A stretch of DNA of 64,000 nucleotides from Escherichia coli (lineage in GTDB: Bacteria > Pseudomonadota > Gammaproteobacteria > Enterobacterales > Enterobacteriaceae), in NCBI RefSeq assembly GCF_048403405.1, contig NZ_CP183129.1, one strand, 5' to 3'. Below, piece by piece: positions 27,001 to 30,000 of the stretch. Positions within the stretch are counted from its first letter, which is position 1, and the number at the start of each line of letters is the position of its first letter. A program made the position numbers.

Positions 27001-30000
27001 TGGCAGCAGAATGACGGTAATGACAACGGGGCTTATGTCGATACCTGGATCCAGTACGGATGGTTTAATAATGCCGTTAATGGTGAAAAACTGGCTGCGG
27101 AGTCCTGGAAATCCCGTGGATTTACCGGTTCAGTGGAAGCGGGTTATACCTTTAAAGCCGGCGAATTTATCGGTAGCCAGGGTAGCCACTATGACTGGTA
27201 TATTCAGCCGCAGTCCCAGATCACGTGGATGAATGTAAGAGCCAGTGAGCATACGGAGAAGAATGGCACGAAAGTTCAGCTCAGCGGAGACGGTAATATC
27301 CAGAGTCGTCTGGGCGTCAGAACTTACCTGAAAGGTAAGAGTGCGTCTGATGATAATAAGGCGCATCAGTTTGAGCCATTTGTGGAAGTTAACTGGATCC
27401 ATAATACACGGAGCTGGGGTGTCAAAATGGATAATACGGCACTCAGTCAGGACGGAGCTACAAATATTGCTGAAGTCAAAACGGGTGTTCAGGGTAAATT
27501 GTCAGATAACCTGAATGTCTGGGGCAATGTTGGTGTTCAGGCTGGCGATAAAGGGTACAGTGATGCCCAGGCAATGCTGGGTATTAAATATATATTCTAA
27601 TCACACAGTGGCAGGAGGGGACCTCCTGCCACCTCAGGGTTGTCATAATGAGTTCTGTAATGAAATTTTCTGTTGTTAATGCAGTAGTGCTGCTGTTGCT
27701 GATTGTACTTACTGGTGTTTTTTATATGAAAAAGTCAAAAGAAATTGCAGTTGTTAATATCGATGCTATTTATAATCAGTCTACCGCCGGAGACATGGCC
27801 AGAAAGCATCTGAATGAGGTTAAGAGTATTCTTGAAAAAGGATATGAGGATGCGCAAAAAGCATTCGCAGATAACGCGAATAAAGAGGCGCTGCTTCTTG
27901 ATGCCAGACAAAAACTGGAACGACAATATGTTATTGAGGAAAATAGCGCAAAAAAGGTGTTATCCCGTGCGATAGATAATGCCATAGGCACATGGAGAAA
28001 AGACAATCCTAAAAATATTGCCGTATTGTCTTCAGGTGTTGTGCTTGCGCATAACGAGTCAGCTGATATCACCAAAGAAGTCATGACTCTGGTTGAAAAA
28101 GAAAATCTGGTTTTTAATAAATTACCCAAAGTGGAAGTGCACAATAAGAATGAAGAGAAACCAGAACAAAGTAAGTAATCACTAGATTCTGACGATTTCC
28201 AGAAGGGAGATTCAGCAGGCCAGCATCTGTAATCATTCAGATTTGCTGGCTTGCTGCTAAATATGGTTGCTAAGAAAAATAGCAGACCAGTAATTTATTC
28301 AGATTACTGAATATAATAATTTTTCAGGAACGGTTATGCTGAAGGTAGTATGTTTAATCGACACAATTATTTGCTGTGTCTAATATGAGGTGACATTTTT
28401 ATGATCACTGACCAGCAAGACTGACCCGTATTGATTAGCCTGATTATTGGCAACTTATTGGGGTAGTCATTTTGACATCGAATGGGGGAGGTTTCCAGTT
28501 AAGTTCACGAATGCATGATGATTTGCGTTCACATATCGAAGTACTGGTTGACTATACTAAGGATTTTAAGATAACTCACTGATTGTAAGTGGGTTATTGC
28601 GAGGGGGATGATAAATGGTGTCCCCTGCAGACATCTACTTGACGAGGCAGGGGATTGATTGGAATGGTGTTTTTTAGATGTGAGAAATATTTTACCCGCT
28701 ATTTTACCCATTGGCGCGGCTTAAGAGCTTATTTTTGAATTCACAATGGTCACGATATAACCATCTTGCTCGCCCGTGGATAACTTTGGCTTTAGGCAGG
28801 TCGCCGGACTTAATCCGGTCGTAGATGAAGGTTTTACCGAAGCCAGTATCAGCCATGATGAATTTCAAATCAACCAGTGAATCAGGTTGTAGTTCGTGTT
28901 GCATGAGTGCTATCTCCGAATAGGGAATCGAACCTGCAAATCAGGAAATAAAAAACCGCCATCAGGCGGCTTGGTGTTCTTTCAGTTCTTCAATTCGAAT
29001 GTTGGTTACGTCTTATTCGATACGCACTCCTGGTATTTCGCCTTTTGATATTGCTAAGTCATAAATTTGCGCGGCACTATATCCATCCCGCATCCATGAA
29101 TCTAAGGCGCGAACAGCCTCGCTACGCTTTTTATCTTCTCTCTCATTTTTGATATCAACGAGGACATCAACGCAATTAAGGCAAATGTGGATTTTGTCCT
29201 TACATTCGATCATGGCGGCTTTACCATGATTTCCGCCACACAGTGAGCATAAATCTTCAGGGTCTGTCTGGTATTTCTGTAACGTTAGATGGTTGAATGT
29301 TGAACAGGCCATAATCATCTCCATAAAACAAAACTCGCCGTAGCGAGTTCAGATAAAAGAAATCCCCGCGAGTGCGAGGATTGTTATTCATTGCTGATAT
29401 TCACCTTTATCGCGAACACCTTTACCGGTTTATCACCGAAGTGCGGATGTGTGATTGTCTTGATTTCATATCCACCATACGGAACATCAATTCTGCGACT
29501 GGAATCGTCGCGCTTCGGATATCCCTTTGTGATAATCAGGCGGTCATATTCCCGGAACATAATTCGCTTATTCCAGTAGTCATTACACAGGCGATACTCT
29601 TCCGTTTTCTCCCCGCGAATCATGGCATCGAAGTATTCACCTTTGACGGCAAGTTGCAGGTTTGCCACGGTTAACCTCCTGCGGCGGTTCCGGTAGCCGC
29701 ATCCAGTGTGACGGCTCACATACCCCCTCAACACCATTCATGTAAAAGAATTGAAATAACCCTTTACCTTTGTGAAACCCTACCATCTGCTCTTTAGTGT
29801 CTGAGCAATAAACCAAAACATCTTCTTCGTTTGGCATTCGATCACTACAGCTTATCCAACCATCAGGAGCTACCGGAGAGTTGACACCGGGAATATTTTC
29901 CGGAATATTTTGTTGTGCGTTTTGTGGTTGTTCGGATTTACCCTGAAGCATGGCGGCGCGGCAGGCGTTCCAGCCAGCTGTTCGCCCAAGCGCGTAAACT

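What the first reader, a model, noticed from the sequence alone, without database searches (positions are those of the whole stretch)
28616..28939. Split tRNA-Arg homology around torI at the prophage end
Two segments that are contiguous in argW as I recall it (TTGCAGGTTCGATTCC and CTGCAGGGGACACCA, minus strand) are separated by about 290 bp containing torI. The lower one is the more likely attR crossover; the upper may be phage-borne attP-arm homology or an older att remnant. The integrase is not in the window and should lie beyond the tailspike end.
Basis: partly seen in the sequence, partly recalled or inferred. Interest (0 to 1): 0.45.

Follow-up and report, generated by a model that had tools for sequence, protein, structure and literature searches.

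The report
Prophage right end at tRNA-Arg site
This is the well-studied right junction (attR) of an HK620/Sf6/KplE1-type prophage sitting in the arginine tRNA gene argW; the second tRNA-like piece is not a second junction but a short, strongly conserved phage sequence just ahead of the excision gene torI, and its function is unknown.

Summary
Both segments exist exactly as described and are contiguous in argW, with a 1-nt overlap. The lower one (28615-28630) is the published 16-bp common core of the KplE1/HK620/Sf6 argW recombination module. An empty-site E. coli genome matches the window up to 28630, and free phage genomes match from 28609 rightward, so this is attR. The upper one (28924-28939) is phage-borne. 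It sits at the same place in the genome records of phages HK620 and Sf6 and in a K-12-type KplE1 prophage, 18 nt before the torI start codon. It lies outside the 135-bp attR that suffices for excision in vitro.

Comparison across Escherichia, Citrobacter, Enterobacter, Pantoea, Edwardsiella, Erwinia and Salmonella elements shows that the conserved unit is G-GTTCGATT(C/T)C-C, which equals the argW T-loop. It is an island of invariance (1.8 bits per column against 0.4-0.6 in the flanks). Two lineages carry it twice, about a quarter lack it, and it is kept in modules whose excisionases appear to read three different repeat types. Many relatives also carry T-loop-like TTCGAT directly next to the core, so torI did not split a tRNA fragment.

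No integrase lies in the window, which ends inside the tailspike gene. The system is already known. The leader motif appears undescribed, and what reads it is unresolved.

The parts
28615..28630 (-). attR common core CTGCAGGGGACACCAT, which equals the 3' end of argW. It contains my inferred 7-bp overlap TGCAGGG (28629->28623).
   Evidence: There is one exact match in the window. It is identical to the published 16-nt KplE1 core (PMC2951348) and to the annotated attP cores of HK620 and Sf6. The empty-site genome matches the window up to 28630 (H13, 7, 12). The overlap is inferred from the inverted repeat GGTGTC/GACACC that flanks TGCAGGG in relatives.
28609..28614 (-). Extension of phage/host identity (TTATCA) beyond the 16-bp core. 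Position 28614 is T, as in the phage, where the empty-site genome has C.
   Evidence: The window reads CACCATTTATCAtcccc, HK620 reads CACCATTTATCAgttcg, and the empty site reads CACCATCTATCAtcccc. In the related lysogen, attL and attR both carry T.
28631..28640 (-). Presumed IntS core-type half-site C (AAGTAGATGT, followed by the first C of the core).
   Evidence: This is an inference. The half-site consensus TTnGRTGTC sits next to TGCAGGG across relatives, and its inverted partner is GACACC.
28689..28709 (-). Two direct GGGTAAAAT repeats, presumed IntS arm-type sites of the P arm. They overlap the torI stop codon.
   Evidence: The sequence is. IntS arm-type sites share the motif TAAA (PMC2951348, section 8). 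The attR-IHF2 primer that bounds the functional 135-bp attR maps to 28726->28707 (PMC3509656, section 3.6).
28704..28904 (-). torI (hkaC / Sf6 gene 18), the recombination directionality factor. It is 66 aa and is transcribed toward the core.
   Evidence: The ORF is. It is annotated torI in RefSeq genomes. It is 100% identical to HK620 HkaC and Sf6 gp18.
28914..28917 (-). Shine-Dalgarno sequence GGAG of torI.
   Evidence: The sequence is. GGAG is conserved at this position in the aligned leaders.
28923..28936 (-). Conserved leader motif CAGGTTCGATTCCC. Its invariant part, G-GTTCGATT(C/T)C-C, equals the argW T-loop with its closing pair.
   Evidence: Fourteen representative leaders give 1.82 bits per column, against 0.37 upstream and 0.59 between the motif and the SD. 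Among non-E. coli leader/C-site combinations, 28 of 37 carry it. It also contains the TorI-site pentamer GTTCG (PMC2951348, section 8).
28924..28939 (-).
   Evidence: The extra TTGCA match is specific to the E. coli leader class.
28945..28972 (-). Intrinsic terminator (AAGCCGCCTGATGGCGGTTT plus a T-run) at the end of the upstream phage gene, 10-15 nt before the motif.
   Evidence: Terminator scan. Two alternative terminator hairpins are found upstream of the same leader in E. coli prophages.
29013..29324 (-). Upstream phage gene (Sf6 gene 19 / 933W L0063-like). It marks the start of the variable early-left region.
   Evidence: ORF, Sf6 annotation and matches to Stx phages.
27648..28178 (+). 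Host OmpH-family gene, the last host gene before attR. The UpaE autotransporter gene lies at 19687-27600.
   Evidence: ORFs. RefSeq annotation of the empty-site genome and of the related lysogen.

Best explanation
The lower segment is shown to be the common core of attR. It is the 3' end of argW regenerated when an HK620/Sf6/KplE1-type, P22-like prophage integrated through IntS. Host DNA lies to its left (UpaE, OmpH). To its right lies the phage P arm: the C half-site, arm-type GGGTAAAAT repeats, and torI reading toward the core.

The upper segment is shown to be phage DNA. It is a 13-14-nt element, CAGGTTCGATTCCC, fixed 5-6 nt before the torI Shine-Dalgarno sequence and 17-18 nt before the ATG. 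It travels with the leader of the excisionase gene in nearly all lineages of argW-targeting RDF-attP-int modules. It is not a crossover site, not a host scar, and not the missing half of a tRNA fragment broken by torI.

I infer that it descends from, or copies, the argW T-loop. That is the attB sequence immediately 5' of the core. I also infer that purifying selection keeps it as a cis-regulatory element of excisionase (and possibly read-through integrase) expression.

My rough weights for what reads it:
- About 0.35 for a DNA operator, split between IntS binding a B-type core half-site (about 0.2) and TorI-type RDFs binding GTTCG (about 0.15).
- About 0.25 for an RNA-level element of the translation-initiation region (T-loop mimic or weak SD masking).
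- About 0.15 for a recombination linker or boundary sequence with no regulatory role.
- About 0.15 for a relic carried along without function.
- The remaining 0.1 for something else.
For: Evidence for the core:
- It is an exact single match.
- The empty-site genome is identical up to 28630 and then continues into argW.
- Phage genomes are identical from 28609 rightward, with an annotated attP core.
- The 16-nt core is published (PMC2951348), and Kapi1 reports the same site (PMC8787464).
- A related lysogen has intS and an intact argW at the other end.

Evidence that the upper segment is phage-borne and outside the functional att site:
- HK620, Sf6 and a K-12-type KplE1 prophage carry it at the same place.
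- The primers for the in vitro attR exclude it (PMC3509656).

Evidence for conservation:
- The same motif occurs in Escherichia, Enterobacter, Citrobacter, Pantoea, Edwardsiella, Erwinia and Salmonella elements.
- It scores 1.82 bits per column, against 0.37 and 0.59 in the flanks.
- Among non-E. coli leader/C-site combinations it is full in 28 of 37, partial in 1 and absent in 8.
- An unbiased pattern scan of viral contigs hit excisionase leaders almost exclusively.
- It is duplicated in Midgardsormr38 and in L011.

Evidence that the tRNA is not split:
- About 10 lineages have (A)TTCGATGT(A/T) directly next to TGCAGGG as well as the leader copy.

Evidence that the RDF is not the sole reader:
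- The motif is kept in modules whose P'-arm repeats are GTTCG, RTTAC or (A/C)GAAC.
Against: No binding, transcription or translation data exist for this element. PtorI is described as non-characterized (PMC2951348).

About a quarter of lineages lack the motif: Chronis, Eho49, L015, L019, L020, L241, L259, L284, and the deletion variant L283. It is therefore dispensable.

No relatives that target another tRNA were found, so I could not test whether the motif tracks the target tRNA.

The pattern of invariant positions does not fit the IntS half-site consensus. T at -3 and C at -7 are fixed, whereas C sites prefer G at -3 and vary at -7.

No conserved RNA structure was found: the consensus fold is -2.6 kcal/mol with 0 compensatory pairs.

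The shared leader could be partly explained by recent mosaic exchange rather than long-term selection. L201 and L141 have near-identical leaders, differing at one base, in front of different RDF types.
Confidence: 0.75

Rival explanations
1. Split-tRNA relic. An ancestral attP carried about 31 nt of contiguous argW homology (T-arm to CCA). The excisionase gene and P arm (about 290 bp) were inserted into it, and the upper piece is the displaced 5' half with no function of its own.
For: The two pieces abut exactly in argW, with a 1-nt overlap. They have the same strand and order. Every module that carries the motif targets argW.
Against: Only the 11-13-nt T-loop part is conserved, and the TTGCA extension is confined to the E. 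coli leader class. The flanks have diverged to 0.4-0.6 bits while the motif stays at 1.8 bits, which implies selection rather than a neutral relic. Many lineages carry a second T-loop-like TTCGAT contiguous with the core. Tandem copies occur in two lineages.
Confidence: 0.12
2. Older att remnant. The upper piece is the scar of an earlier integration or excision at argW, or a secondary attR.
For: argW is a hotspot with tandem and degraded elements. For example, L115 has another integrase fragment beyond attR.
Against: The piece is present at the same position in the genome records of phages HK620 and Sf6. It lies 293 bp inside phage DNA. It is followed by the torI SD, not by the rest of the tRNA 3' end. 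The core pattern occurs only once in the window.
Confidence: 0.02
3. A lambda-like pI promoter with a cII site, as annotated in HK620 and Sf6. The segment would be the -35 hexamer (TTGCAG) plus spacer of a cII-activated promoter that starts at or after the torI ATG and makes Int without TorI during lysogenisation.
For: GenBank annotation of HK620 gives a promoter at 1664-1702 and a cII site at 1689-1701, and Sf6 gives pI. TTGCAG, a 17-nt spacer and GAGATA can be drawn. A start at the ATG would neatly uncouple int from torI.
Against: The tetrads are TTGC-N5-TTGC, not N6. The first tetrad varies even within E. coli (TTGC, TTAC, TTTC), and both tetrads are absent in other leader classes. The sigma-70 scan finds nothing here. 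The best-conserved bases are the would-be spacer, which promoters do not constrain. The module moves between phage backbones that may carry different cII-type regulators.
Confidence: 0.1
4. Coincidental tRNA likeness. The motif is an operator for the RDF (TorI recognises GTTCG), and its identity to the T-loop is incidental.
For: TorI sites are defined by GTTCG, GATCG and GTCCG (PMC2951348, section 8). The motif contains GGTTCG, as in site I4. In four leader classes a second (G/A)T(T/C)CG lies 12 nt downstream, over the SD. TorI already represses PintS.
Against: The invariant stretch extends 5-6 nt past the pentamer, whereas attL sites are variable there. The motif is retained where P'-arm repeats are RTTAC (phiEt88, L267, L277) or (A/C)GAAC (L249, L261, L273). 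An 11-nt identity to the target tRNA's T-loop is unlikely by chance.
Confidence: 0.12

Closest known systems
KplE1 (CPS-53) prophage recombination module of E. coli K-12 (attL/attR, IntS, TorI)
   Same: The 16-nt core CTGCAGGGGACACCAT is identical. The TorI protein is identical. The P-arm sequence, the torI leader and the upper motif are the same (PMC2951348, PMC3509656). Integration is in argW, with int and RDF at opposite prophage ends.
   Different: KplE1 is a 10-kb defective remnant followed by dsdC. Here the prophage is at least 35 kb, P22-like, apparently complete up to the tailspike, and followed by ompH/upaE. The phage/host identity here runs 22 bp (T at position 17) rather than 16.
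attP regions of phages HK620 and Sf6 (hkaC / gene 18 - attP - hkaB / gene 17 - int)
   Same: They are 97-98% identical over window 28609-29009/29100, including the core, torI, the leader motif and the terminator. Both are P22-like podoviruses with a tailspike, as here.
   Different: In the free phage the core is followed by the P' arm and int. In the window it is followed by host DNA. Their records annotate the motif region as a putative pI promoter and cII site, which comparative data here do not support.
tRNA 3'-end identity blocks of tRNA-integrating elements in general. In my recollection of Williams 2002, sites fall into sublocation classes (anticodon loop, T-loop, 3' end).
   Same: The phage carries the tRNA's 3' end, so the gene is restored on integration. 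The crossover lies in the acceptor/T-stem 3' region.
   Different: An extra, non-contiguous copy of the T-loop placed in front of the RDF gene is not part of that scheme, as far as I could find.
Lambda pI / xis-int arrangement and sib retroregulation
   Same: Both face the same logical problem: making Int without the RDF for integration, and both for excision, using the position of attP relative to the genes.
   Different: In lambda, int and xis are adjacent on one side of attP and pI lies inside xis. Here attP lies between the RDF gene and int, PintS overlaps attL, and no promoter has been shown at the motif.

Membership tests
KplE1/HK620/Sf6 argW recombination module | The 16-nt common core CTGCAGGGGACACCAT lies at the prophage/host junction. 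| tested here: met
   There is an exact match at 28630->28615. The host/phage switch was mapped with the empty site and with phage attP.
KplE1/HK620/Sf6 argW recombination module | A TorI-type RDF gene is the last phage gene next to attR and is transcribed toward the core. | tested here: met
   The ORF at 28904->28704 is 100% identical to TorI, HkaC and Sf6 gp18.
KplE1/HK620/Sf6 argW recombination module | IntS arm-type sites (TAAA-containing repeats) lie in the arm. | tested here: met
   There are two GGGTAAAAT repeats at 28709-28689. The TAAA motif is described in PMC2951348, section 8. Binding itself was not tested.
KplE1/HK620/Sf6 argW recombination module | An IntS integrase gene and an intact argW with a second core copy lie at the other prophage end (attL). 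| not testable with these tools
   The other end is outside the window: there is no IntS homolog and no second core. A related lysogen with identical flanks has intS plus argW about 40 kb away.
tRNA gene or tRNA pseudogene | A cloverleaf detectable by tRNA models. | tested here: not met
   ARAGORN finds only tRNA-Asn and tRNA-Thr at 44971-45126. Rfam gives no tRNA match in 28400-29200 at E<=10.
Secondary or older att site (scar) | It lies at a host/element boundary, is absent from free phage genomes, and is continuous with the rest of the tRNA 3' end. | tested here: not met
   The upper segment is present in HK620 and Sf6 and is followed by the torI SD.
cII-dependent pI-type promoter | TTGC-N6-TTGC tetrads flank a -35 element, a -10 element is recognisable, and both are conserved among relatives. 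| tested here: not met
   The spacing is N5. The first tetrad is TTGC, TTAC or TTTC within E. coli, and the tetrads are absent in other leader classes. The scan gives no sigma-70 hit. Transcription starts were not measured.
TorI (RDF) operator | A GTTCG-type pentamer is present, and the site changes when RDF specificity changes. | tested here: inconclusive
   The pentamer is present (PMC2951348). However, the motif is unchanged in lineages whose P'-arm repeats are RTTAC or (A/C)GAAC.
IntS core-type (B-like) half-site | The sequence equals the attB arm next to the overlap, and its conservation follows the half-site consensus TTnGRTGTC. | tested here: inconclusive
   It is identical to the argW B side, GGTTCGATTCC, and matches 6 of 8 consensus positions. 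It is fixed at positions where C sites vary (-7) or prefer another base (-3), and it has no overlap-like sequence beside it.
Structured RNA leader / T-arm mimic | A conserved helix supported by compensatory changes. | tested here: not met
   RNAalifold gives -2.6 kcal/mol and 7 pairs, none with a compensatory change. A full T-stem can be drawn only in the Pantoea/Edwardsiella class.

The most novel reading that the evidence does not exclude
The T-loop-identical 11-13-mer in front of the excisionase gene may be a functional copy of the attB arm that every argW-targeting module keeps, whatever its RDF or arm-site specificity. It could be a DNA site through which the integrase's core-binding domain (the one specificity these modules must share) controls RDF expression. 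Alternatively it could be an RNA T-loop mimic that ties RDF translation to a host tRNA-recognising factor. Either would add an undescribed layer to directionality control in a model recombination system, and would explain the torI regulatory region that the literature calls non-characterized.
Probability: 0.25. Interest if true: 0.55.

Novelty: already known. Interest (0 to 1): 0.3.

Why it matters
The junction is a textbook-level, experimentally dissected att site, so its identification mainly serves annotation. It fixes the right end of a P22-like prophage at 28630/28631 and predicts intS plus argW a few kb beyond the window's right edge.

The useful by-product is the leader motif. The KplE1 authors argue that control of excision acts on RDF expression, yet the torI regulatory region is uncharacterised. 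A short element that is invariant across genera and across RDF specificities, and identical to the target tRNA's T-loop, is a concrete and cheap target for mutagenesis in HK620, Sf6 or KplE1.

Tried and rejected
- **RNA structure.** RNAalifold on 14 diverse leaders gave a marginal fold with no compensatory pairs, so I rejected this as support.
- **Rfam.** At E<=10, only chance-level sRNA hits appeared and there was no tRNA hit.
- **Sigma-70 promoter scan.** Nothing was found upstream of torI.
- **cII site.** It is not conserved.
- **Coding constraint.** The motif is read as G-S-I-P in frame with the RDF in most classes, and g341c's record annotates an N-terminally extended ORF through it. However, third codon positions are invariant, the E. 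coli class has an in-frame TGA just upstream, and two classes are out of frame. I rejected this.
- **Covariation with other target tRNAs.** IntS relatives in the phage collection fall from 61% or more identity (all argW) to 37.5% or less, and the four remote relatives I inspected lack the RDF-attP-int layout. The test could not be made. The one genome-contig scan returned only argW-type cores.
- **Other copies in the window.** The only other near-match is the T-loop of the prophage tRNA-Asn.
- **Literature.** The JBC 2007 and Virology 2010 papers that map the att sites are not held. No held paper contains both the contiguous string GGTTCGATTCC and argW, although a sequence printed with spaces would be missed. 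A search for torI transcription-start data found nothing relevant. The ROD21 RDF paper was not informative.
- **Informal comparisons.** From memory, I compared the motif with the IHF, Fis, LexA, RcsAB, TorR-box, sigma-32, sigma-54 and sigma-E consensus sequences. None gave a convincing match, and I make no claim from them.
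Full report
**Observation**

On the minus strand, CTGCAGGGGACACCA lies at 28630->28616 and occurs nowhere else in the window. TTGCAGGTTCGATTCC lies at 28939->28924 and is also unique. Between them are 293 bp that hold a 66-codon ORF, torI, at 28904->28704. argW taken from an E. coli genome with an unoccupied site reads ...GGGCTAATTGCAGGTTCGATTCCTGCAGGGGACACCAtctatcatccccctcgc. The two pieces are therefore contiguous in the tRNA and share one C. A 16-mer of a 75-nt tRNA falling this close to the core, on the same strand and in order, is expected about 6e-6 times by my arithmetic. No tRNA gene is detected here by ARAGORN or by Rfam at E<=10.

**The lower segment**

A megablast of 28300-29100 against complete E. 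coli genomes shows three kinds of match:
- genomes that match the whole stretch;
- many genomes that match only from about 28615 rightward (torI and its leader);
- genomes that match only 28300-28630 and then run into tRNA-Arg, yfdC and mlaA, which is the empty site.

Phage genomes (Sf6, HK620, IME10, Kapi1, N7 and others) match from 28609 rightward at 96-98%. HK620 and Sf6 annotate their attP core at exactly the homologous 16 nt. Host DNA therefore ends and phage DNA begins within CTGCAGGGGACACCAT. This is the published core of KplE1/CPS-53 (PMC2951348). With one extra base, it is also the att site of Kapi1 (PMC8787464).

A K-type genome carrying KplE1 (torI, yfdT, dsdC) shows the same leader, gene, arm and core, followed by the dsdC-side flank. 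That flank's sequence matches the published attR primer (PMC3509656). A match to this stretch is present in 3114 of 5426 complete E. coli genomes; in the rows listed, most of these cover the core, torI and its leader.

**Wider context**

To the left of the junction lie the host genes for the UpaE autotransporter (19687-27600) and an OmpH-family protein (27648-28178). The prophage runs rightward to the end of the window. tblastn with HK620 Int finds no integrase in the window. The last 2.4 kb match the imm-I/mnt region and the conserved N-terminal part of P22-like tailspikes. This fits the HK620/Sf6 gene order, tailspike-(O-antigen genes)-int-attP.

In a related lysogen with identical flanks, the other end carries intS next to an intact argW. 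That junction reads ...TTGCAGGTTCGATTCCTGCAGGGGACACCAtttatcagttcgc.

**The upper segment is phage DNA and is not needed for recombination**

It is present, base for base, in HK620 (1692->1677), in Sf6 and in KplE1. It lies 18 nt before the torI ATG and just after the intrinsic terminator of the preceding gene (28972->28953). The attR that supports excision in vitro was amplified with a primer that maps to 28726->28707. The functional arm therefore stops about 200 bp short of the upper segment (PMC3509656, section 3.6). The 'older att remnant' reading is excluded. The 'attP-arm homology' reading holds only in the loose sense that the segment lies on the P-arm side of the phage.

**What is actually conserved**

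I collected excisionase loci in four ways:
- from one genome per species;
- from viral contigs, by protein;
- from viral contigs, by the pattern AGGTTCGATTYC-N3-9-GGAGAT;
- from viral contigs, by an arm-site pattern.

I added annotated phages: Midgardsormr38, Chronis, Eho49, g341c and phiEt88.

Within the E. coli class, the leader from the T-run to the ATG is nearly invariant, even where the upstream terminator module differs. Across classes, only G-GTTCGATT(C/T)C-C survives. The bases in front vary (TTGCAGG, TTCCAGG, TGACAGG, CATAGG, GCCGG, TCCAAG, CTCAG, CCCTG). The 5 nt between motif and SD also vary (CTATTC, AAACC, TGTTC, GATAT and others). In 14 representatives of at least 10 leader classes, the motif columns carry 1.82 bits, against 0.37 upstream and 0.59 between motif and SD. 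The pattern scan, which did not ask for any gene, returned excisionase leaders almost exclusively. The few exceptions included genuine tRNA 3' ends.

The motif is duplicated in tandem in Erwinia phage Midgardsormr38, and partly so in an Enterobacter prophage. It is missing in about a quarter of lineages. One of these (L283) looks like a 26-nt deletion between CTGG repeats.

**Why 'split by torI' is the wrong picture**

If torI had been inserted into a contiguous tRNA homology, the sequence next to the core should lack T-loop homology. Instead about ten lineages have (A)TTCGATGT(A/T) directly before TGCAGGG. These include Midgardsormr38, phiEt88, and the Citrobacter, Pantoea, Enterobacter and L208 elements. 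That is T-loop-like TTCGAT contiguous with the core, in addition to the leader copy. Together with the tandem copies and the selective pattern, this makes the leader motif a separate element. Its ultimate origin from argW remains likely, because every module that has it targets argW.

**Who reads it**

The literature defines TorI sites by GTTCG, GATCG or GTCCG, and IntS arm sites by TAAA (PMC2951348, section 8). The motif contains GGTTCG, and in four leader classes a second (G/A)T(T/C)CG lies 12 nt downstream, over the SD. TorI autoregulation is therefore a natural idea.

The arm-site scan, however, uncovered modules with the same argW core and three different P'-arm repeat families. These are GTTCG-type, RTTAC-type (phiEt88, L241, L259, L267, L277, L284) and (A/C)GAAC-type (L249, L261, L273). 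I take these repeats as the RDF sites by analogy. The leader motif occurs unchanged with all three types. A near-identical leader (one base different) also precedes TorI-type and second-family RDFs, as in L201 and L141. The RDF is therefore unlikely to be the common reader.

What all these modules must share is recognition of the argW core region by the integrase. The motif equals the attB arm immediately 5' of my inferred overlap (GGTTCGATTCC|TGCAGGG). This favours an IntS B-type half-site. The fit is imperfect. Half-sites next to the overlap give a consensus TTnGRTGTC, and the motif matches 6 of 8 positions. Yet it is fixed exactly where C sites vary or prefer another base, and it never drifts toward the consensus.

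An RNA-level role would fit the fixed distance to the SD and the preservation of the whole 7-nt T-loop with its closing pair. However, RNAalifold finds only a marginal SD-masking pairing with no compensatory change, and a proper T-stem exists only in the Pantoea/Edwardsiella class.

The pI/cII annotation in HK620 and Sf6 is not supported. The tetrads are N5-spaced and variable, no sigma-70 promoter is found, and the conserved bases would be the spacer.

I therefore commit only to 'conserved cis element of the RDF leader, probably regulatory'.

**Comparison with what is known, and novelty**

The locus is a member of the KplE1/HK620/Sf6 argW module by every feature testable in the window: core, TorI, arm repeats and argW target. 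The integrase end lies outside the window. The att site, the RDF and the split int/xis layout are all published, so the finding as stated is already known.

I found no description of the leader motif in the papers held, apart from the putative promoter annotation in two GenBank records. The two papers that mapped the sites in detail could not be read, so priority cannot be excluded.

**Verdict**

The system is ordinary and already known. It carries a modestly interesting, testable side-observation about a T-loop-identical element in front of the excisionase gene.

Noticed in passing
window 28609-28630; L002 1795-1835; L004 2680-2700 and 43090-43110: In this lysogen type the phage/host identity is 22 bp (CTGCAGGGGACACCATTTATCA), not 16. 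Position 17 is T in attR and attL and in the phage, but C in the one empty-site genome examined. Either attB is polymorphic, or the base was converted to the phage allele during or after integration.
   Followed up: partly
L249, L261, L241, L259, L267, L273, L277, L284, L222 (P' arms): Modules that share the argW core TGCAGGGGACA and GGGCATA-type arm sites carry three different families of phased repeats next to the int promoter: GTTCG, RTTAC and (A/C)GAAC. This suggests three RDF DNA specificities on one integration site.
   Followed up: partly
L201 vs L141: Near-identical upstream gene end, terminator and leader (one base different) are joined to a TorI-type RDF in one contig and to a second-family RDF (about 40-45% identical) in another. 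A mosaic joint therefore lies at or within a few bases of the RDF start codon.
   Followed up: no
L005 (Erwinia phage Midgardsormr38) 2805-2838, minus strand: There is a tandem duplication of the leader motif, ACAGGTTCGATTCCCGT-CAGGTTCGATTCCCACC. A degenerate extra copy also occurs in the Enterobacter prophage L011.
   Followed up: partly
L283: The leader reads ...TTTTTTACGCCTGGAGATAA..., as if about 26 nt including the motif had been deleted between CTGG repeats. This is a natural motif-less variant of an otherwise similar leader.
   Followed up: no
L221 (Salmonella phage g341c) CDS 19, 2135-2398: The deposited annotation starts the excisionase 23 codons upstream, reading through the motif (…SSIPKPEIKP-MRELRDD). 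Comparison with relatives suggests the shorter ORF is the real one.
   Followed up: partly
window 28529-28711, minus strand: A 60-codon ORF runs from the P arm across the core into host DNA. It is the attR-side hybrid counterpart of the small hkaB/gene 17 ORF that spans the attP core in HK620 and Sf6. It is probably not a real gene.
   Followed up: no
window 44971-45126: Two tRNA genes (Asn-GTT and Thr-TGT) lie inside the prophage. In the related lysogen, the matching stretch with tRNA-Asn lies just after the antiterminator Q gene and before the lysis genes, and that lysogen has only the Asn gene.
   Followed up: no
window ~26400-26600 within the UpaE gene (19687-27600): A Pro-Gln/Pro-Glu dipeptide repeat (…EPQPQPQPQPQPQPHP…) sits in the autotransporter that RefSeq labels phase-variable. 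The underlying short DNA repeat produces long ORFs in other frames.
   Followed up: no
L115 downstream of attR: Beyond the attR core lies the start of another P4-like integrase gene, interrupted by a stop. This indicates tandem or decayed elements stacked at argW.
   Followed up: no
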